Shown here one piece after another: positions 3,892 to 19,461 of a DNA stretch of 24,000 nt. Made by a program: the position numbers and the translations under genes. Where the stretch lies: positions 3,417-27,416 of the forward strand of contig JABMRD010000172.1 of NCBI GenBank assembly GCA_013202875.1, written 5' to 3'. This stretch comes from Actinomycetota bacterium (GTDB lineage: Bacteria > Actinomycetota > Humimicrobiia > Humimicrobiales > Humimicrobiaceae). Position 1 is the first letter of the stretch, and the number at the start of each line of letters is the position of its first letter. The notes beneath the pieces were generated by a model. That model ran no database searches and was not told the origin of the DNA. It was given only the letters and a program-made list of their open reading frames with translations.

Positions 3892-4321
3892 CTCCCAATA
3901 ATTTTTCTATACCTTCTTTGGAAATGTTTTTACTGTCAGATAAAAATCTGGAAACCATGTTTTTTGTACTTTCCTCAAGCAATTTATCTGAAACTGATTT
4001 TATTATGCTTTTTGAAAGTTCTTTTTTATCAACTGCTGCAGAATAAATATAGGTTTTTGCAGTTTTATTCTGTGTCAGAAGCCTTTTTTCTGCCAGGGTG
4101 GTCATTGTTGACATTACGGTTGTGTAAGGAATAAATCCTTCTTCCTTACTTTCAATTTCTTTTCTAAGCATATTCTCATGTACTTCTCTTACTGTTACTT
4201 TGCCTTTTCCCCATACAATCTTCATTATTTCAGCTTCCAGATTGCTTATACTATTAAGGCCATTTATTCCAATTTCCTCTGATTTTTTCTTAATTTCTCC
4301 GGTCTTTGTCATTTTTATCAC
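3875..4321 (-). CDS. BlaI/MecI/CopY-family winged-helix transcriptional repressor
   Basis: 148-aa ORF with the family pattern LSNLEAEIMKIVWGKGKVTVREVHENM...YTTVMSTMTTLAEKRLL...KTYIYSAAV. It is paired with a downstream M56 peptidase gene. The N-terminal ~25 aa may be an over-extension. Confidence 0.8.
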   Translation of the reverse strand: MIKMTKTGEIKKKSEEIGINGLNSISNLEAEIMKIVWGKGKVTVREVHENMLRKEIESKEEGFIPYTTVMSTMTTLAEKRLLTQNKTAKTYIYSAAVDKKELSKSIIKSVSDKLLEESTKNMVSRFLSDSKNISKEGIEKLLGEIDKS

Positions 4322-12841: not shown

Positions 12842-13129
12842 ATGGAAAGAATTTCTAAAGATGATGTGAAGCATGTAGCAGAACTGGCGGAACTGGAATT
12901 CAATGAAAAGGATATAGAAAAAATCACCTCTCAACTGGACAGGATACTGGACCACGTTGCAAATGTAAGCAGTGTAAATACCGAAGGAATTCCGCCGACA
13001 TCACATATACTGGATATAAAGAATGTTTTCAGGGAGGATATGGCAGAAAAATCAGTTACCCAGGAGTCCGCGCTTAAAAATGCCCCTGATGAGGCAAATG
13101 ATGGCTTTAAAGTGCCAAAGATAGACTAG
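12842..13129 (+). CDS. gatC: Asp/Glu-tRNA(Asn/Gln) amidotransferase subunit C
   Basis: 95-aa ORF with a typical GatC N-terminus (ISKDDVKHVAELAELEFNEKDIEKITSQLDRILDHV). It lies directly upstream of gatA. Confidence 0.9.
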   Translation: MERISKDDVKHVAELAELEFNEKDIEKITSQLDRILDHVANVSSVNTEGIPPTSHILDIKNVFREDMAEKSVTQESALKNAPDEANDGFKVPKID

Positions 13130-13149
13130 TAAACTAGTAAGGAGAAATT

Positions 13150-14607
13150 TTGGAAATTCATTATCTTACTGCTCACCAACTTAAAGACAGGCTGGAAAAA
13201 AGACAGATATCCTGCACTGAAATTGTTGAAGGTGTATATTTGAGAATTGAAGAGGTTGGGGACAGGCTAAATTCATATATCAGACTGGAGAAGGAAAGTG
13301 CCTTATCCAGGGCAGGGGAAGTAGATAAGCTTATAAGCGCCGGCAGTGATATAGAAGATTTTATGGGCATACCAATTGCCATAAAAGACAATATATGTAC
13401 CAAAAATATAACTACAACCTGTGCATCCAGAATTTTAGAAAACTATATCCCTATATATAATGCTACGGTAATTGACAGACTGGAAAGCCGGAATTATATA
13501 CTGGCTGGAAAGGCAAATATGGATGAGTTTGCAATGGGCTCGTCCAATGAAAACTCATATTTTGGGACTGTTAAAAACCCATGGGATACTGACAGGGTGC
13601 CGGGCGGGTCCAGCGGTGGACCTGCAGTCTGTGTTGCAGCAGGTGAGGCTGTATGCTCGCTGGGATCTGATACCGGCGGCTCAATAAGGCAGCCTGCATC
13701 TCTTTGCGGTGTTGTCGGATTTAAGCCCACATACGGAATGGTGTCCAGGTATGGACTGGTAGCGTTTGCATCTTCACTTGACCAGATAGGGCCGCTTACA
13801 AGAGATGTTGAAGATTGCGCAGCGATGCTTAATATAATCTGCGGCTATGACAGAAAAGATTCCACCTCTATAAATGTGGAGGTTCCGGATTATAAAAGCT
13901 TTCTTAAGGCAGACATAAAAGATATGAGGATCGGGGTTCCGAAGGAACTGATGGTTGAAGGTATCGACCGGGAAGTAAAAGAAGCAGTTTACAGGATCAT
14001 CAAACTGGTTGAAGATATGGGTGGTATAGTTGAAGAGATCTCATTGCCAAGCCTGGAATATGCGCTGAGCGTGTATTACATTATTGCCCCTTCTGAAGCC
14101 AGTTCAAACCTTTCAAGATTTGATGGAGTAAGATATGGATACAGGAACGTGGAAGCGGGGGCCTTAAGGGAAATGTACCGCAGAAGCAGGGCAGAGGGAT
14201 TTGGAGATGAGGTTAAAAGAAGAATAATGATAGGAACCTACTGTCTGTCAGCAGGATATTATGATGCGTATTATGAGAAGGCACAGAGAGTAAGAACGCT
14301 CGTTATAAATGATTTTAAAAAAGCTTTTGAAAAATTTGATGTTCTGATCTCTCCGACATCGCCTACTACGGCTTTTAAGATTGGAGAGAAGATGGAAGAT
14401 CCATTGACCATGTATCTTTCGGATATCTGCACTATACCGGTAAATCTGGCGGGACTGCCGGCAATTTCAATTCCTGCAGGGCTGTCAGGCAGTAAATTGC
14501 CCATTGGATTGCAGATTATTGGAAACGTATTGAGAGAGGATAATGTGCTTAAGGTAGCTTACAGCCTGGAGAAGGCAATAGGCTTTACCGGCAGGCCTGG
14601 GTTATAA
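13150..14607 (+). CDS. gatA: Asp/Glu-tRNA(Asn/Gln) amidotransferase subunit A
   Basis: 485-aa ORF with a TTG start 7 nt after AAGGAG. The amidase signature is present (GGSSGGPAV, GSDTGGSIRQPA, KPTYG). Confidence 0.93.
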   Translation: MEIHYLTAHQLKDRLEKRQISCTEIVEGVYLRIEEVGDRLNSYIRLEKESALSRAGEVDKLISAGSDIEDFMGIPIAIKDNICTKNITTTCASRILENYIPIYNATVIDRLESRNYILAGKANMDEFAMGSSNENSYFGTVKNPWDTDRVPGGSSGGPAVCVAAGEAVCSLGSDTGGSIRQPASLCGVVGFKPTYGMVSRYGLVAFASSLDQIGPLTRDVEDCAAMLNIICGYDRKDSTSINVEVPDYKSFLKADIKDMRIGVPKELMVEGIDREVKEAVYRIIKLVEDMGGIVEEISLPSLEYALSVYYIIAPSEASSNLSRFDGVRYGYRNVEAGALREMYRRSRAEGFGDEVKRRIMIGTYCLSAGYYDAYYEKAQRVRTLVINDFKKAFEKFDVLISPTSPTTAFKIGEKMEDPLTMYLSDICTIPVNLAGLPAISIPAGLSGSKLPIGLQIIGNVLREDNVLKVAYSLEKAIGFTGRPGL

Positions 14608-16193
14608 CAGATTACAGATGTTTTTATCAGCTTATGCAAGAATGGTTTTTTTAAATTAATAACTAGTATATCTGGACTGGAGAAGTCAACTACCTCTCTC
14701 TAAAGGAAGAGGCTTGAATAAAGTCTCTGGTTGACTAGGAGGCATAGTTATTATGCAGAAGTTAAAAGAAAGAAATACATACACACCTACAGTTATTCCG
14801 CAAGATTGTAGCAACTGTGGTTTGTCATTAAACAGTCCTTTTGAGGTACGGGACAGTGTGGCAAGCTTAAAAACTTCTTTTAACAGCTCCGATGCGGCTC
14901 TCACTGCCAGAGAACAGGCAGGACAGAACTTGCGAGTATCTGTCGTAAATGTTCTCAATAAAAGAGGAGTTCCCCTGATGCCTTGCAAACCTCAAAAGGC
15001 TAGAAGACTTCTTAAAGAAGGAAAAGCTAAGGTATTAAAGAGAACCCCGTTTACTATTCAATTGTTATATACAACTGGAGAATCAAAACAAAATCTTACA
15101 TTAGGGGTAGATGCTGGATACTCTAATGTAGGTTTGTCTGTAGTTTCAGCAGATAAAGAATTGTATTCAGCAGAATTAAAATTAAGAACTGATATGGTTA
15201 AGCTCAATTCAGAGAGGGCTACGTACAGAAGAACCAGAAGAAGTAGAAAGACGTGGTATAGAAAAGCAAGATTTCTTAATAGAAAGAAACCACAGGGATG
15301 GTTAGCTCCCTCGATCCAAAATAAGCTGGATACTCATTTGAAGATTATCGAAAGAATAAGGGGTATTCTTCCTATTTCTAATGTAGTTATAGAAGTAGCT
15401 GCGTTTGATACACAAAAGATCCAGAATCCAGAAATTACGGGAGTTGAATATCAGCAAGGTGAACTGGTGGGATATAAAATCAGAGAATACTTATTAGAGA
15501 AATGGAAAAGGAAATGTGCTTACTGTGGGGAAAAAGACATTCCTCTCGAAATTGAACATATTATACCAAAATCAAGAGGTGGCTCCAGCAGGATATCCAA
15601 TCTAACGATTTCCTGCAACAAATGTAATTTAAAGAAGGGCAACAAAACAGCAGAAGAATTTGGACATCAAGAAATACAGAAACAGGCTAAAGAATCCTTA
15701 AGAGCGACTGTATTTATGAATAACGTTAGATGGAAATTAGTAAATCTACTGGGTTGTAAATGGACTTATGGTTATATAACAAAACACAATAGGATTAAAT
15801 TAGGATTAAAAAAATCACATTCTAACGATGCTTTTATTATAGCAGGGGGTTCAACACAAAAAAGAAACGATCAAATATTTTGGATTAAACAGGTTAGAAA
15901 ATGTAATCGGAAACTTTTTAAAGGGAAAAGAAGTCATCTTAAAAATACTGCACCGAGGTTCGTTAAAGAGTTTCAACGTTTTGACAAAGTGCTTTGGAAA
16001 AATATTGAATGCTTTATCTTTGGAAGAAGAAGTACAGGATACTTTGATATTAGAATGTTAAATGGCCATAAACTTTCTTCGAGTGCAAAAGCTAAAGATT
16101 TAAAATTATTAGAGACCTTTAAAACATTATTAACAGAAAAAATGCGTTTCCTCCCCTACCTAAAGGATGGGGTCTCCGCACAAAGGATGGAAG
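14608..16193 (+). mobile_element. Non-autonomous IS200/IS605-type IscB (OMEGA) element filling the gatA-gatB spacer; ends approximate
   Basis: A ~1.6-kb spacer lies between genes that are normally adjacent in an operon. It contains a candidate omega RNA plus iscB and no tnpA. Exact ends cannot be set without an empty-site comparison. Confidence 0.6.
14640..14935 (+). ncRNA. Candidate IscB omega RNA (HEARO-type guide RNA scaffold); boundaries approximate
   Basis: This is the expected position, immediately 5' of and overlapping the iscB start. Nested stems are present: 14684-14690/14730-14736 and 14693-14697/14708-14712, plus 14787-14792/14806-14811. Possible long-range pairs are 14674-14679/14833-14838 and 14725-14730/14907-14912. 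It is more GC-rich than the other spacers. No covariance search was possible. Confidence 0.5.
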
Positions 16194-16210
16194 ATGAAAA
16201 ACGAATATGA
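14753..16210 (+). CDS. iscB: IscB RNA-guided endonuclease (PLMP, RuvC-I, RRXRR bridge helix, RuvC-II, HNH, RuvC-III, C-terminal TID-like tail)
   Basis: Motifs in order: VPLMPCKPQKARRLLKEGKAKV; LGVDAGYSNVGLSVV; YRRTRRSRKTWYRKARFLNRKKPQGWLAPSI; VVIEVAAFDTQKIQNPEITGVEYQQGEL; CAYCGEKDIPLEIEHIIPKSRGGSSRISNLTISCNKCNLKKGN; KSHSNDAFIIAG; FGRRSTGYFDIRMLNG. Coordinates are the maximal ORF. IscB homology starts near 14936, so TTG 14930 is an alternative start. Confidence 0.9.
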   Translation: MQKLKERNTYTPTVIPQDCSNCGLSLNSPFEVRDSVASLKTSFNSSDAALTAREQAGQNLRVSVVNVLNKRGVPLMPCKPQKARRLLKEGKAKVLKRTPFTIQLLYTTGESKQNLTLGVDAGYSNVGLSVVSADKELYSAELKLRTDMVKLNSERATYRRTRRSRKTWYRKARFLNRKKPQGWLAPSIQNKLDTHLKIIERIRGILPISNVVIEVAAFDTQKIQNPEITGVEYQQGELVGYKIREYLLEKWKRKCAYCGEKDIPLEIEHIIPKSRGGSSRISNLTISCNKCNLKKGNKTAEEFGHQEIQKQAKESLRATVFMNNVRWKLVNLLGCKWTYGYITKHNRIKLGLKKSHSNDAFIIAGGSTQKRNDQIFWIKQVRKCNRKLFKGKRSHLKNTAPRFVKEFQRFDKVLWKNIECFIFGRRSTGYFDIRMLNGHKLSSSAKAKDLKLLETFKTLLTEKMRFLPYLKDGVSAQRMEDEKRI

Positions 16211-17645
16211 ACCGGTTATAGGCTTAGAGACCCATGTTGAACTTTATACCAATACCAAGATGTTTTGCGGGTGCAGGCTTTCATTTGGTGAGGAGAAAAA
16301 TATATATACCTGTCCTGTATGTCTGGGACATCCAGGGTCACTTCCAGTTATAAATAAAAAGGCAATTGAATATGCCGTAAAGATTGCCCTGGCACTAAAT
16401 TGTAAGATTAAAAAATATACTATATTCCACAGAAAAAATTATTTTTATCCAGATATGCCCAAAAATTACCAGATTTCACAGTATGACATGCCTCTGGGAG
16501 TCGGAGGCTACCTTGATATTGATATGGGCAGCTATATAAGGAGAGTGGGAATAACCAGGGTGCATATGGAGGAAGATACGGGGAAACTCCTGCATAAGGG
16601 AACAACCGGAAGAATAAGTGAATCCGAAGCCAGTATAGTTGATTTTAACCGTGCCGGGACTCCTCTTATAGAAATTGTTACGGAGCCGGATATAAGATCA
16701 CCAGGGGAAGCAAAGGGATATATGATAACGCTAAGGAATTTAATTCTGTTTCTGAATGTCAGCGATTGCAGTATGGAAGAAGGGAGCTTGAGGTGTGATG
16801 CCAATGTTTCTGTAAGAAAAACATGCGAAGATAAAATTGGCACAAAGAACGAGATTAAAAATTTAAACTCCTTTAAATTCCTGCAAAAAGGGCTGGAATA
16901 TGAAGTTAAAAGACAGATTAAAGTTCTGGAGACAGGCGGTGAAGTAATTCAGCAGACAAGGCATTATGACAGCAAAACAGGAACCACCAAAGTCCTGCGT
17001 TCTAAAGAAGAAGCCCATGACTACAGATATTTTCCGGAGCCAGATCTGGTTCCTATTTATATAGAGGATAAGATGATAGAGGATATTAGAAAAACAATTC
17101 CCGAGCTGCCTTCTGTAAAAGCTAAAAGATTTGAGAAGCAGCACGGCCTACCCAAATATGACAGCAGCTTTCTGGCTAATAATAAAGATCTGTCAGATTA
17201 TTTTGAGCAGTGCTGCAGGCATTATAATAATGCTAAAAATATTGCCAACTGGATAATGGGTGACTTCAGCGCACTTCTAAATAAAGAAAAAATAATCATT
17301 AAAGATAGCAGGGTAACTCCTGAGAACCTATGCAAGATGCTGGAAATAATCGATAAGGGCAAAATCAATTCTAAAATAGCCAAGGCAGTATTTGAAGAGA
17401 TGTTCAGCACCGGGGGGGACCCACAGAAGATTATTGAGGATAGGGGGCTGGAGCAGATAAGCGATGAAGGTTTGCTTGAAGCCATTATTGAAGAGGTCGT
17501 TAAAGATAATCCCGGCGCGGTGGAACAGTTCAGGGAGGGAAAGGATAAAGCTATAGGCTTTTTAATCGGAAGAGTAATGGCTAAAACCAAAGGCAAGGCA
17601 AATCCCAGAATAGTAAATGATATTATAACTAAAAAATTAAGTTGA
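16194..17645 (+). CDS. gatB: Asp/Glu-tRNA(Asn/Gln) amidotransferase subunit B
   Basis: MKNEYEPVIGLETHVEL is the canonical GatB N-terminus, followed by CPVCLGHPGSLPV and a C-terminal YqeY-like tail. ATG 16194 sits behind AAAGGA. The 9 extra codons from ATG 16167 in the ORF track are not homologous. Confidence 0.93.
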   Translation: MKNEYEPVIGLETHVELYTNTKMFCGCRLSFGEEKNIYTCPVCLGHPGSLPVINKKAIEYAVKIALALNCKIKKYTIFHRKNYFYPDMPKNYQISQYDMPLGVGGYLDIDMGSYIRRVGITRVHMEEDTGKLLHKGTTGRISESEASIVDFNRAGTPLIEIVTEPDIRSPGEAKGYMITLRNLILFLNVSDCSMEEGSLRCDANVSVRKTCEDKIGTKNEIKNLNSFKFLQKGLEYEVKRQIKVLETGGEVIQQTRHYDSKTGTTKVLRSKEEAHDYRYFPEPDLVPIYIEDKMIEDIRKTIPELPSVKAKRFEKQHGLPKYDSSFLANNKDLSDYFEQCCRHYNNAKNIANWIMGDFSALLNKEKIIIKDSRVTPENLCKMLEIIDKGKINSKIAKAVFEEMFSTGGDPQKIIEDRGLEQISDEGLLEAIIEEVVKDNPGAVEQFREGKDKAIGFLIGRVMAKTKGKANPRIVNDIITKKLS

Positions 17646-17800: not shown

Positions 17801-18832
17801 ATGATAAAGAAAATAGGTGTTTTATCTGGTGGAGGAGACTCTCCAGCAATAAATGCAGCTATAAGAGCAATTTATCTAAAGGCATCACAATATGGATATA
17901 AAGTAATCGGGATTAAAAATGGATGGGAGGGCCTGGTTAAAGGCAATATAGTAGAACTGGACAGGGAATCAGTTTCAGGGATACTGGGAGAAGGCGGTAC
18001 CATAATTGGAACATCAAGGACCAATCCTTTCAAGATAGAAAATGGAGTTGAAAAGGTTAAAGAGAATATAAAAAAGTTTGAGCTGGATGCCATAATAACT
18101 ATTGGCGGAGATGACACTAATGGCGTTATAACCAGGTTGACACAGTATGGAATAAAAGGTGTTGGTGTTCCTCAGACCGTAGATAATGATATTGCCCATT
18201 CTGATTATGCTATAGGTAGTGACTCTGCGCTGGAAGTTGTAACGGATTGCCTTGATAAGCTTCACACTACAGCATCTTCACATAGTAGAATAATGATAGT
18301 GGAAATTATGGGAAGAGACGCAGGCTGGCTTGCCTTAAGTGGAGGGATTGCCGGTGGAGCCGATGTTATTTTAATTCCTGAGGTTGCTTTTGACTATGAT
18401 GAAATTGTAAATGTTATAGAAAAGAGAAGGGAAAGAGGCAAGGACTTTACTATAATCGCAGTTGCTGAAGGAGCAAAGCCTGCTGAAGGAGAAGAGCAGG
18501 TAACAGCTTCTTGTGCAATTGATAGTTTTGGCCATGTACAGCTTGGCGGGATAGGTAATGTTATTGCCAGGGAAATTGAGAAAAGAACAGGTTATGGAAC
18601 CAGAGTAGTCATACTTGGCCACTTGCAAAGAGGCGGAAGACCGTCCGCTTTTGATAGGATTGTTGCCACCAGGCTGGGAGCAAAAGCTGTAGAGTTGGTC
18701 CATGAAGGACAATTTGGCCAGATGGCAGTTATGGAAAATGGTGCAATAACATCAGTTCCTCTGGAGAAGGCTATAAAAGAAGAGAAGCCAATGGATCAGG
18801 AACTTTATGAATTATCCAAACTCTTACATTAA
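17801..18832 (+). CDS. pfkA: 6-phosphofructokinase (PfkA family; phosphoryl donor uncertain, ATP or PPi)
   Basis: 343-aa ORF with GVLSGGGDSPAINAAIRA, TIGGDDTNG, VPQTVDNDI, MGRDAGWLAL and LGHLQRGG. Confidence 0.88.
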   Translation: MIKKIGVLSGGGDSPAINAAIRAIYLKASQYGYKVIGIKNGWEGLVKGNIVELDRESVSGILGEGGTIIGTSRTNPFKIENGVEKVKENIKKFELDAIITIGGDDTNGVITRLTQYGIKGVGVPQTVDNDIAHSDYAIGSDSALEVVTDCLDKLHTTASSHSRIMIVEIMGRDAGWLALSGGIAGGADVILIPEVAFDYDEIVNVIEKRRERGKDFTIIAVAEGAKPAEGEEQVTASCAIDSFGHVQLGGIGNVIAREIEKRTGYGTRVVILGHLQRGGRPSAFDRIVATRLGAKAVELVHEGQFGQMAVMENGAITSVPLEKAIKEEKPMDQELYELSKLLH

Positions 18833-19203: not shown

Positions 19204-19461
19204 TTAGATCAACCCCAGATGGGGGCTATCGGAAAAATTGAAGCCAATTTTCTCCAGTGCGGTTGCTGCAGCATTGTTATGTGTATCATCCAACACACGC
19301 AAAAGAGGTCCTACTGCTCTCCCGTCTCTTATATTCCCGAGAGCTACTGCTGTTTCCCGTCGGACATCTTTATCCTCATACTTTAAAGTTCTTATCAATC
19401 CTTCAACATCTTTATTTACTCGTATCTTTTCCACATTTGGCTTTTTACCAAATATATCCAT
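19204..19461 (-). CDS. HEAT-repeat (PBS-lyase HEAT-like) protein, short or truncated
   Basis: 85-aa ORF with the HEAT-like pattern VEGLIRTLKYEDKDVRRETAVALGNIRDGRAVGPLLRVLDD. Confidence 0.55.
   Translation of the reverse strand: MDIFGKKPNVEKIRVNKDVEGLIRTLKYEDKDVRRETAVALGNIRDGRAVGPLLRVLDDTHNNAAATALEKIGFNFSDSPHLGLI

What the first reader, a model, noticed from the sequence alone, without database searches (positions are those of the whole stretch)
14608..16210. OMEGA element inserted between gatA and gatB, co-oriented, with its ORF terminating inside gatB
Seen: gatC (12842-13129) and gatA (13150-14607) are 20 nt apart, but gatA and gatB (ATG 16194) are 1586 nt apart, and the whole gap is the candidate omega RNA plus iscB on the same strand. 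The iscB frame does not stop within the spacer. It reads across the gatB ATG and ends at TGA 16208-16210, a 17-nt overlap. No tnpA is present. I saw no convincing hairpin-plus-T-run terminator inside the element. Established: the gatCAB genes are commonly transcribed together as an operon. Inference: gatB expression must now depend on transcription, and possibly translational coupling, through the mobile element. That would couple element expression to a housekeeping operon. The flanking gatA-proximal sequence should specify the omega RNA guide, so the predicted homing target is the uninterrupted gatA-gatB junction.
Basis: partly seen in the sequence, partly recalled or inferred. Interest (0 to 1): 0.65.

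Follow-up and report, generated by a model that had tools for sequence, protein, structure and literature searches.

The report
IscB transposon parked on gatB start codon
A 1.5-kb selfish DNA element that encodes a small RNA-guided nuclease (IscB, the ancestor of Cas9) and its guide RNA sits exactly between the ribosome-binding region and the start codon of the essential gene gatB; it is a textbook member of a known transposon family, and close relatives still have the empty site.

Summary
gatC, gatA and gatB are real (Pfam). Between gatA and gatB lie a full-length HEARO/omega RNA (Rfam, 121 bits, 14685-14904) and an IscB gene (RRXRR + HNH; matches solved IscB structures).

Relatives about 93-97% identical in gatA/gatB have an empty site with a 77-78 nt gatA-gatB spacer. 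This fixes the insert at 14685-16193 (1509 bp) with no target duplication. It starts 5'-GTCA and sits immediately 5' of ATGAA, which is the gatB start codon. That is the published ISC/IS200-IS605 target (N|ATGA) and the published GstIscB TAM (TTCAT on the other strand).

The first 77 nt of the "gap" are the native spacer. Its last 16-18 nt are the predicted guide, and they match one empty allele perfectly.

The 17-nt overlap with gatB comes from a stop-loss. Sister copies carry TAA/TAG at positions -4 to -2 from the element end, where this copy has GAA.

No tnpA and no plus-strand promoter- or terminator-like site lies in or near the element, so read-through expression is plausible but untested.

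This is a new member of a known kind. One possibly new point: across this clade, 21 of 32 elements abut a long co-oriented ORF start.

The parts
12842..14607 (+). gatC (12842-13129) and gatA (13150-14607), the upstream host genes. Their transcript is the likely source of the omega RNA.
   Evidence: Pfam GatC 8e-21 and Amidase 5e-155. The same gene order occurs in all related loci.
14608..14684 (+). Native gatA-gatB intergenic spacer (77 nt), retained upstream of the insert. It is not part of the element.
   Evidence: It aligns base for base with the 77-78 nt spacer of the empty-site loci L063-L072.
14669..14684 (+). Predicted omega RNA guide (TATCTGGACTGGAGAA, 16 nt; possibly up to about 20 nt). 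It is encoded by host DNA just outside the element.
   Evidence: It lies directly 5' of HEARO model position 1. The L067-type empty site has ...TATATCTGGACTGGAGAA|ATGAA, 18/18 identical. The guide-outside-the-RE rule is from Meers et al.. The 16-nt guide length comes from other IscBs, so the length here is inferred.
14685..16193 (+). The inserted non-autonomous ISC / IS200-IS605-family element (1509 bp). It starts 5'-GTCAAC and ends ...GGATGGAAG-3', with no target-site duplication.
   Evidence: Filled versus empty alignment...GGAGAA|GTCAAC...GGAAG|ATGAAAAAC against ...GGAGAA|ATGAAAAAC. Independent copies L154-L156 at other sites begin at the same GTCAAC.
14685..14904 (+). Omega RNA scaffold (Rfam HEARO, RF02033). 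The real scaffold may run on to about 14929. It contains the transposon right end.
   Evidence: cmscan 121.2 bits, full model 1-211, E 6e-25. The two stem changes checked in L062 (14694, 14699) are G-C/G-U preserving. RNA fold z-score -2.0.
14930..16210 (+). iscB coding sequence (426 aa from TTG 14930). The longest frame starts at ATG 14753. The last 17 nt (16194-16210) are gatB DNA.
   Evidence: RRXRR starts at residue 65 of the long frame. Solved IscBs align from their residue 2-3 to query residue 4. Homologue alignment. Motifs are intact by inspection: PLMP, GVDAG, IEVAAFD, EIEH...N and HSNDA.
16143..16180 (.). Subterminal imperfect hairpin of the transposon left end. Outer stem TGCG/CGCA; inner stem CCCCTACC-TAAA-GGATGGGG. 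It also encodes the C-terminal FLPYLKDGVS of IscB.
   Evidence: Fold. The architecture (outer stem, TTCCTCC, inner hairpin, GTCTCC) is conserved in about 25 related loci, with different arm sequences in different loci. The fold of this copy alone is not better than shuffles (z -0.1 to -0.3).
16183..16192 (+). Element terminus AAGGATGGAA. AAGGA is a Shine-Dalgarno-like motif 6 nt before the gatB ATG. GAA 16190-16192 occupies the position of the family's stop codon.
   Evidence: Sister copies end AAGGAGGTAGA|, AAGGAGTTAAG| and AAGGAGATAAG|, with TAG/TAA in the iscB frame. The window, L062 and L074 all have GAA.
16194..16198 (+). ATGAA. It is the target site / TAM of the element (TTCAT on the - strand) and at the same time the gatB start codon plus the first two bases of its second codon.
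   Evidence: Empty-site alignment. ATGA follows the element end in 35 related loci. N|ATGA is the published ISC target (PMC4810608). TTCAT is the measured GstIscB TAM.
16194..17645 (+). gatB, uninterrupted. Its own upstream region has been moved 1.5 kb away.
   Evidence: GatB_N 6e-118 and GatB_Yqey 9e-56. The N-terminus MKNEYEP... is identical in empty-site relatives.

Best explanation
The feature is a non-autonomous ISC-type IS200/IS605-family transposon (IscB nuclease plus omega/HEARO RNA, 1509 bp, window 14685-16193). It is carried by a Candidatus Hydromicrobium-like actinomycete.

Shown:
- The element was inserted without target duplication immediately 5' of the motif ATGAA (TTCAT on the transposon's top strand). 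That motif is here the gatB start codon.
- The native 77-nt gatA-gatB spacer now lies upstream of the element.
- The element is absent from relatives about 93-97% identical in gatA/gatB.

Inferred:
- Because the guide lies outside the element, the omega RNA can only be made from transcripts that start upstream, most likely the gatCA transcript. The same transcript would carry iscB and then gatB, since no terminator-like or promoter-like site intervenes.
- The IscB-omega RNA complex would recognise the empty junction (TATCTGGACTGGAGAA + ATGAA) and cut it. Repair from a filled copy then restores or spreads the element. This is the published 'peel-and-paste plus homing' logic.
- gatB translation now uses the element's terminal AAGGA motif and/or ribosomes that finish iscB 17 nt inside gatB.

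That overlap exists because the family's stop codon, 2-4 nt from the element end, has mutated to GAA in this lineage.
For: Identity:
- HEARO at 121 bits over the full model.
- RRXRR + HNH, and hits to solved IscB structures at E 1e-39 to 1e-46.
- Thousands of IscB homologues, the nearest annotated one being 'RNA-guided endonuclease IscB [Candidatus Hydromicrobium sp.]'.

Boundaries:
- Ten empty-site contigs in three lineages show a 77-78 nt spacer.
- The junction alignment shows no duplication.
- The copies L154-L156 have different flanks but start at the same GTCAAC. L154 is 95.6% and 92.7% identical over the two ends.

Target / TAM:
- ATGA follows the conserved terminal hairpin in 35 related loci.
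- The literature gives N|ATGA targets and 5'-GT(CA) termini for ISC elements (PMC4810608).
- TTCAT is the measured TAM of GstIscB, oriented 5' of the left end.

Guide logic:
- The guide lies outside the right end, transcription must read in from the host, and iscB is preferentially co-oriented with the upstream gene (Meers et al.).
- The L067-type empty allele matches the flank 18/18 and has ATGAA.

Activity state:
- The three alleles differ by 15 synonymous and 10 non-synonymous changes, a rough dN/dS of about 0.2.
- The catalytic motifs are present by inspection.

Expression:
- No + strand promoter-like or terminator-like hit lies between 14275 and 17033.

Stop-loss:
- Sister copies have TAG/TAA in frame at -4 to -2, where this copy has GAA.
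Against: - No expression data exist, and the promoter scan covers only sigma-70-like consensus sites. It may not suit this phylum, so an internal promoter for gatB cannot be excluded.
- No tnpA is in the window and no second copy of this element was found in the same population. Current mobility is unproven.
- One allele (L062) has a 1-nt deletion in a G-run that truncates IscB after RuvC-III. This is either decay or an assembly error.
- The left-end hairpin of this copy has two central mismatches and does not fold better than shuffled sequence.
- Nuclease activity, guide length and TAM are inferred from relatives, not measured for this protein.
Confidence: 0.85

Rival explanations
1. The element is an immobile relic. 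It is stranded at this site without a transposase, is slowly decaying, and is kept only because deleting it imprecisely would damage gatB. IscB and the omega RNA no longer do anything.
For: - No tnpA in the 24 kb.
- Only one locus was found for this element across genome and metagenome scans.
- The native stop codon is lost in all three alleles.
- L062 carries a frameshift.
- The left-end hairpin is weak.
Against: - Substitutions among alleles are biased to synonymous sites, with dN/dS about 0.2.
- The omega RNA scores far above the Rfam threshold, and the two stem changes checked preserve pairing.
- Catalytic motifs are intact.
- The iscB frame is intact in four of the five contigs that carry this insertion (window, L060, L061, L074).
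- A 93-96% identical copy sits at another site in another sample (L154), so the family moved recently.
Confidence: 0.25
2. The element is a domesticated, host-serving IscB. The nuclease and guide are retained for a host function, such as regulating gatB or the gatCAB operon, or excluding competing strains or incoming DNA that carries the empty allele. They are not retained for transposon maintenance.
For: - It is single-copy, embedded in an essential operon, and under purifying selection.
- Its end supplies a Shine-Dalgarno-like motif to gatB.
- The closest empty allele (L063 type) differs exactly in the TAM-proximal 6 nt of the target, as expected if cutting had selected escape variants.
Against: - The insertion is polymorphic within about 97%-identical lineages and is frameshifted in one allele.
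- The guide targets the element's own empty site, which is the selfish default.
- Nuclease motifs are intact, so it is not a dead repressor.
- The whole 77-nt spacer evolves fast, so the seed changes are not statistically special.
Confidence: 0.07
3. The filled allele spread among lineages by ordinary homologous recombination of a gatA-element tract. Neither TnpA transposition nor IscB-stimulated homing was involved.
For: Divergence between the window and L062 is 0.7-1.7% across gatA and about 1.3-2% in the element. It is 6% in gatC and 7.7% in gatB 16455-16755, where the empty L063 type is no more distant. The locus is therefore a recombination mosaic.
Against: A mosaic is also what IscB-triggered break repair with co-conversion would leave, so the data do not separate the two. 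The original arrival at N|ATGAA with exact ISC termini still needs a Y1 transposase.
Confidence: 0.3

Closest known systems
ISC2-type non-autonomous ISC transposons of the IS200/IS605 superfamily (Kapitonov et al. 2016, PMC4810608), e.g. ISC2-1_MS / ISC2-1_HM with N|ATGA targets
   Same: - About 1.3-1.7 kb and a single iscB gene with HNH inserted in RuvC.
- 5'-GT(CA) terminus and subterminal imperfect hairpins.
- Insertion immediately 5' of ATGA with no target duplication.
- No transposase of its own.
   Different: - The host is a Humimicrobiia actinomycete, which is not among the hosts in the passages of that paper read here.
- This copy has lost its stop codon and reads into the host gene.
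- It sits between two genes of an essential operon.
ISGst5 / GstIscB of Geobacillus stearothermophilus (Meers et al. 2023, 10.1101/2023.03.14.532601)
   Same: - TAM TTCAT, which is ATGAA on the iscB strand.
- Omega RNA upstream of iscB, with the guide encoded outside the right end.
- Need for read-in transcription, and co-orientation with the upstream gene.
- Predicted target is the donor joint / empty site.
   Different: - ISGst5 is multi-copy, with a cognate TnpA in the genome and measured activity.
- Here there is one copy, no TnpA seen, and nothing measured.
- Protein similarity to GstIscB was not measured here. The closest solved or characterised IscBs match at E 1e-39 to 1e-46 only.
HEARO RNA (Rfam RF02033) / OgeuIscB-omega RNA ribonucleoprotein (PDB 7XHT, 7UTN, 8CSZ)
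   Same: - Full-length match to the HEARO model, including the pseudoknot.
- The protein aligns to OgeuIscB from the PLMP domain onward.
   Different: - The OgeuIscB TAM is NWRRNA. ATGAAA happens to fit it, but the family motif here is ATGA(A).
- Sequence identity to OgeuIscB is low; only a domain-level alignment was obtained.

Membership tests
IscB (OMEGA) RNA-guided nuclease | N-terminal PLMP motif, arginine-rich bridge helix, and a RuvC domain split by an HNH domain | tested here: met
   PF14239 RRXRR 4e-67 and PF01844 HNH 2e-13. phmmer hits to TbaIscB, OgeuIscB, OrufIscB, HfmIscB and IsrB. The motifs VPLMP, GVDAG, IEVAAFD, EIEH..N and HSNDA are read in the translation.
IscB (OMEGA) RNA-guided nuclease | Cognate omega RNA (HEARO) directly upstream on the same strand | tested here: met
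   RF02033 at 14685-14904 +, 121.2 bits against a gathering score of 83, full model. It ends 25 nt before the predicted TTG start.
IscB (OMEGA) RNA-guided nuclease | RNA-guided, TAM-dependent double-strand DNA cleavage | not testable with these tools
   Only sequence-level support: intact catalytic motifs and a matching target plus ATGAA in an empty allele.
ISC / IS200-IS605 transposon | Exact insertion next to a 4-5 nt target motif without target-site duplication | tested here: met
   Filled versus empty junctions. The motif is ATGAA / TTCAT, as in PMC4810608 and Meers et al..
ISC / IS200-IS605 transposon | Subterminal imperfect hairpins at both ends instead of terminal inverted repeats | tested here: inconclusive
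   The 3'-end architecture is conserved in about 25 relatives, with different arm sequences in different loci. Both ends of this copy can fold, but the folds are not better than shuffles (z -0.3 and -1.3). The inner stem has two mismatches.
ISC / IS200-IS605 transposon | Mobilisation by a Y1 (HUH) TnpA transposase, in cis or in trans | not testable with these tools
   No TnpA in the 24-kb window. The rest of the genome is not available. Family mobility is implied by copies at other sites.
ISC / IS200-IS605 transposon | More than one copy, or presence/absence polymorphism, showing mobility | tested here: met
   Presence/absence polymorphism among lineages 93-97% identical in gatA/gatB. L154 is a second-site copy with 93-96% identical ends. 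No second copy was seen in the same population.

The most novel reading that the evidence does not exclude
The TTCAT-TAM IscB clade may behave as a 'start-codon-seeking' operon cassette. Its target read on the iscB strand is ATGAA, that is Met plus the start of a Lys or Asn codon. Retained insertions therefore sit preferentially right in front of a co-oriented host gene.

- The upstream host gene supplies the transcript that makes the guide.
- The element's last 12 nt can supply a Shine-Dalgarno motif and a stop codon (AAGGAGnTAR|ATGAA, or TGA shared with the host ATG). The downstream gene then stays translated.
- In 32 related loci, 21 have the flanking ATG opening an ORF of 60 codons or more, against 24% for control ATGA sites.
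- In several loci the ATG is a true N-terminus by Pfam.
- In some the iscB stop is the TGA of ATGA.
- In one the ORF fuses to the host gene.

I found no paper that describes this. The pattern itself is statistically solid. Whether it is an adaptation or only a survivorship effect of harmless sites is open.
Probability: 0.4. Interest if true: 0.5.

Novelty: new member of a known kind. Interest (0 to 1): 0.35.

Why it matters
The element itself is ordinary: another IscB/omega RNA transposon, with the published termini, target motif and TAM. Three things give this locus some value.

1. It is a clean natural test case. Filled, empty-and-cleavable (L067 type) and empty-but-seed-mutated (L063 type) alleles coexist among closely related uncultivated Humimicrobiia. 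The homing/maintenance model for IscB could therefore be examined in environmental populations.

2. It shows how such an element can live inside an essential operon at no obvious cost. It lands on the start codon, keeps the gene intact, and brings a ribosome-binding motif.

3. Annotation pipelines call a 485-aa protein that includes 59 codons of omega RNA and 5 codons of gatB. The exact boundaries given here correct that.

Tried and rejected
- Scans for further copies of the element. The genome contigs and metagenome-contig scans with the IscB protein returned only the same gatA|gatB locus at high identity (L074). Everything else was 60% aa identity or less. Second-site relatives (L154-L156) came only through the protein database.
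- Original HEARO paper (PMC4140389) and Altae-Tran 2021 (PMC8929162). Neither is held. My memory that the HEARO paper reported ATGA/GTGA insertion sites and that AwaIscB has an ATGA TAM could not be checked, so it is not used as evidence.
- Literature searches for IscB with 'start codon' or 'translational coupling' gave nothing relevant.
- Promoter/terminator scan. Nothing was found on the + strand inside or next to the element, and overall counts were no higher than in shuffles. This is weak negative evidence only.
- Folding the left end as single-stranded DNA gave a z-score near 0. The hairpin claim therefore rests on family conservation, not on this copy.
- Test of whether the element is younger than its flanks. 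Element divergence from L062 is 1.3-2%, within the range of the flanks (0.9-3.6%), so there is no clear signal.
- Sliding-window mosaic analysis shows recombination but cannot separate homing from ordinary recombination.
- I considered that the overlap with gatB arose from a 4-nt insertion at the element end. I rejected this because the sister copies have termini of the same length, and the difference is a TAA/TAG to GAA substitution.
- I considered ATG 14753 as the real iscB start, since it is preceded by AGGAGG. I rejected it as the main start for three reasons: that AGGAGG is a pseudoknot arm of the omega RNA, solved IscBs begin at the PLMP motif, and some homologues start there.
Full report
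**1. The observation**

The gene calls are correct. Pfam gives GatC for 12842-13129, Amidase (GatA) for 13150-14607, and GatB_N + GatB_Yqey for the frame starting at ATG 16194. The gatA-gatB gap is 14608-16193, 1586 nt.

One + strand frame runs from ATG 14753 to TGA 16208-16210, 17 nt into gatB. Rfam places a full-length HEARO RNA, the family now known as the IscB omega RNA, at 14685-14904 on the + strand. It scores 121.2 bits against a gathering score of 83.

The frame carries RRXRR (4e-67) and HNH (2e-13). It matches solved IscB structures at E 1e-39 to 1e-46 and has thousands of IscB homologues.

**2. Source and alleles**

The closest annotated relative is 'RNA-guided endonuclease IscB [Candidatus Hydromicrobium sp.]' from GCA_030692625.1. 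That contig (L062) is 96.7% identical to the window over 7.7 kb and has the same gatA-iscB-gatB arrangement. Ca. Hydromicrobium belongs to the class Humimicrobiia of the Actinomycetota.

Near-identical contigs come from a JGI metagenome and a Logan run (L060, L061). A third allele, L074, is 98.7% identical with iscB intact.

**3. Empty sites and exact ends**

GatB homologues at 92-95% amino-acid identity lie on contigs with the same neighbours: ligA, rce1-like, gatC, gatA, gatB, then pfk in most. In these contigs the gatA-gatB spacer is only 77-78 nt.

The junctions read as follows:
- Empty: ...ATATCTGGACTGGAGAA|ATGAAAAACGAA...
- Filled, left: ...ATATCTGGACTGGAGAA|GTCAACTACC...
- Filled, right: ...AAAGGATGGAAG|ATGAAAAACGAA...

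The insert is therefore 14685-16193, 1509 bp, with no duplicated bases. Its first base is position 1 of the HEARO model, and the base after its last is the A of the gatB ATG. The 77 nt at 14608-14684 are the native spacer.

Three related copies at other genomic sites (L154-L156) have unrelated left flanks but begin at the same GTCAAC. L154 is 95.6% identical over the first 780 nt and 92.7% over the last 427 nt. The boundaries are thus fixed in two independent ways.

**4. What family this is**

Kapitonov et al. (PMC4810608) defined ISC transposons. They are 1.3-1.7 kb, encode only IscB, and have 5'-GT(CA) termini and subterminal imperfect hairpins. They insert without duplication, some families immediately 5' of ATGA (N|ATGA), and are presumably mobilised in trans by Y1 transposases.

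Meers et al. measured the TAM of G. stearothermophilus IscB as 5'-TTCAT-3', located 5' of the left end. TTCAT is the reverse complement of ATGAA, which is exactly what follows this element.

In about 25 related loci the DNA after the IscB C-terminus has the same layout: an outer stem, TTCCTCC, an inner hairpin whose arms differ between loci, GTCTCC or GTATCC, the return arm of the outer stem, about 7-15 nt, and then ATGA. This hairpin region is what encodes the odd, variable 'IPPRAEARGL / FLPxLKDGVS' C-terminal tails seen in the protein alignment.

The copy in the window has this layout (16143-16180). Its inner stem has two mismatches, however, and its fold is not better than that of shuffled sequence.

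**5. Guide and target**

In IscB elements the scaffold comes from the right end and the guide is the host sequence 5' of it. The omega RNA therefore has to be transcribed from outside the element, and iscB genes are preferentially co-oriented with the gene upstream (Meers et al.).

Here the guide would be the last 16-20 nt of the native spacer (TATCTGGACTGGAGAA, 14669-14684). The empty alleles compare as follows:
- The L067-type allele matches 18 of 18 TAM-proximal bases and is followed by ATGAA.
- The L070 type has three mismatches.
- The closest empty lineage, the L063 type, is about 97% identical in gatA and gatB. It reads CTGAAAA instead of CTGGAGAA, one deletion and one substitution in the 6 nt next to the TAM.

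The seed change in L063 could be an escape variant. The whole spacer is fast-evolving, though, so I do not lean on that reading.

**6. The overlap with gatB**

The iscB frame leaves the element at 16193, and its last five codons (DEKRI) and its stop are gatB DNA. Sister copies end AAGGAGGTAGA|ATGAAC (L154), AAGGAGTTAAG| (L155) and AAGGAGATAAG| (L156). They have TAG or TAA in the iscB frame 2-4 nt from the end and termini of the same length.

The window, L062 and L074 all have GAA at that codon, 16190-16192. The overlap is therefore a stop-loss that predates the split of the three alleles. It is not a general feature.

Elsewhere in the clade the stop is often within the last 13 nt. In some loci it is the TGA of the flanking ATGA (L040, L018, L104). 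In one locus (L118) the frame runs 1326 nt into a downstream host ORF.

**7. Start of iscB**

RRXRR begins at residue 65 of the 485-aa frame. Solved IscBs align from their residue 2-3 to residue 4 of the 426-aa version, and several homologues start there. TTG 14930, preceded by AGGA, is the likely start. The 59 upstream codons are omega RNA, and the AGGAGG before ATG 14753 is a pseudoknot arm.

**8. State of the element**

Across the three alleles iscB has 15 synonymous and 10 non-synonymous differences, which is roughly dN/dS 0.2. The two stem changes in the omega RNA that I checked, at 14694 and 14699, keep pairing. Catalytic motifs are present.

L062 has a one-base deletion in the G-run 15845-15848 that truncates the protein after RuvC-III. 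This may be real decay or a homopolymer error.

No tnpA was seen among the window ORFs of 110 aa or more that were profiled or named via near-identical loci. No second copy turned up in the same population.

**9. Expression**

The consensus scan finds no + strand promoter-like or terminator-like site between 14275 and 17033. Read-through from gatCA into the omega RNA, iscB and gatB is thus the simplest model, but it is inferred.

The native gatB upstream (GGAGAA directly before the ATG) is now 1.5 kb away. The element end offers AAGGA 6 nt before the ATG, and ribosomes ending iscB at 16210 could reinitiate. Both points are inferences.

**10. Population structure**

Divergence between the window and L062 varies along the locus:
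- 0.7-1.7% across gatA and 1.3-2% in the element.
- 6% in gatC.
- 7.7% in gatB 16455-16755, where the empty L063 type is no more distant.

The locus is a recombination mosaic. The filled tract may have moved between backgrounds, by homing or by ordinary recombination. The data cannot tell these apart.

**11. A wider pattern**

In 32 related loci with room to judge, the ATG of the flanking ATGA opens an ORF of at least 60 codons in 21. Only 24% of 2172 control ATGA sites in the same loci do so (binomial p 6e-7).

Several of these ORFs start with signal peptides, or align to Pfam profile position 1-2 within their first 5-13 residues: Fe-ADH, Polbeta nucleotidyltransferase, DUF1648 and a weak, sub-threshold MazE match. 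They are real gene starts.

The gatB case is thus typical of the clade: the TAM doubles as a start codon. I found no paper that states this. It may be no more than survivorship of harmless insertions.

**12. Verdict**

The element is a new member of a well-described kind. Interest is modest: the value lies in the exact natural filled/empty pair inside an essential operon and in the start-codon pattern.

Noticed in passing
L154:58-1563 (protein P0003) versus window 15465-15765: A second-site copy of the same element is 93-96% identical at both ends. Its central ~300 nt, the HNH domain, are about 45% identical and encode a different HNH subtype (CQLCKGKSKD...HHIKSRQIGG). This looks like a domain swap between otherwise near-identical IscB genes.
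   Followed up: partly
window 14753-14929 and homologues P0002-P0070: In most close homologues the frame stays open through the omega RNA, so gene callers report proteins of about 470-500 aa with a 50-70 aa 'N-terminal extension' that is translated omega RNA. The conserved ATG (14753 here) follows an AGGAGG that is a pseudoknot arm. Whether this upstream frame is ever translated is unknown.
   Followed up: partly
L062:4115-4118 (window 15845-15848): The NCBI MAG allele has GGG instead of GGGG, which frameshifts iscB after the RuvC-III motif. This is why its annotated protein covers only 79% of the query. It could be real decay or an assembly error in a homopolymer.
   Followed up: no
L118:4233-5560: In this distant relative the IscB frame has no stop at the element end and continues for 1326 nt through a downstream host ORF. 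It is an extreme version of the run-off seen in the window.
   Followed up: no
L063-L066 around 3990-4000 (equivalent to window 14677-14684): The empty-site lineage closest to the window has CTGAAAA|ATG where the window flank and the L067 type have CTGGAGAA|ATG. The difference lies in the TAM-proximal seed of the predicted target and also removes the GGAG before gatB.
   Followed up: partly
L070-L072 versus window 17801-18832: The pfk gene that follows gatB in the window is absent in the L070 lineage, where gatB is followed directly by the RRM-domain gene. This is a gene-content polymorphism next to the locus.
   Followed up: no
window 17748 and 19304-19388 versus L062: L062 has a 40-nt AT-rich insertion in the gatB-pfk spacer. 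It also has three matches to the window segment 19304-19388 (one collinear plus two more nearby copies at 80-90% identity), which suggests a small intergenic repeat downstream of pfk.
   Followed up: no
L155:2240-2300 and L156:1750-1810: These two related elements are followed by ATAAT rather than ATGAA. They share about 50 nt of downstream sequence although their left flanks differ. Either their true left end lies further out or the target motif is relaxed (ATAA is a reported variant for a partner IS605B).
   Followed up: no
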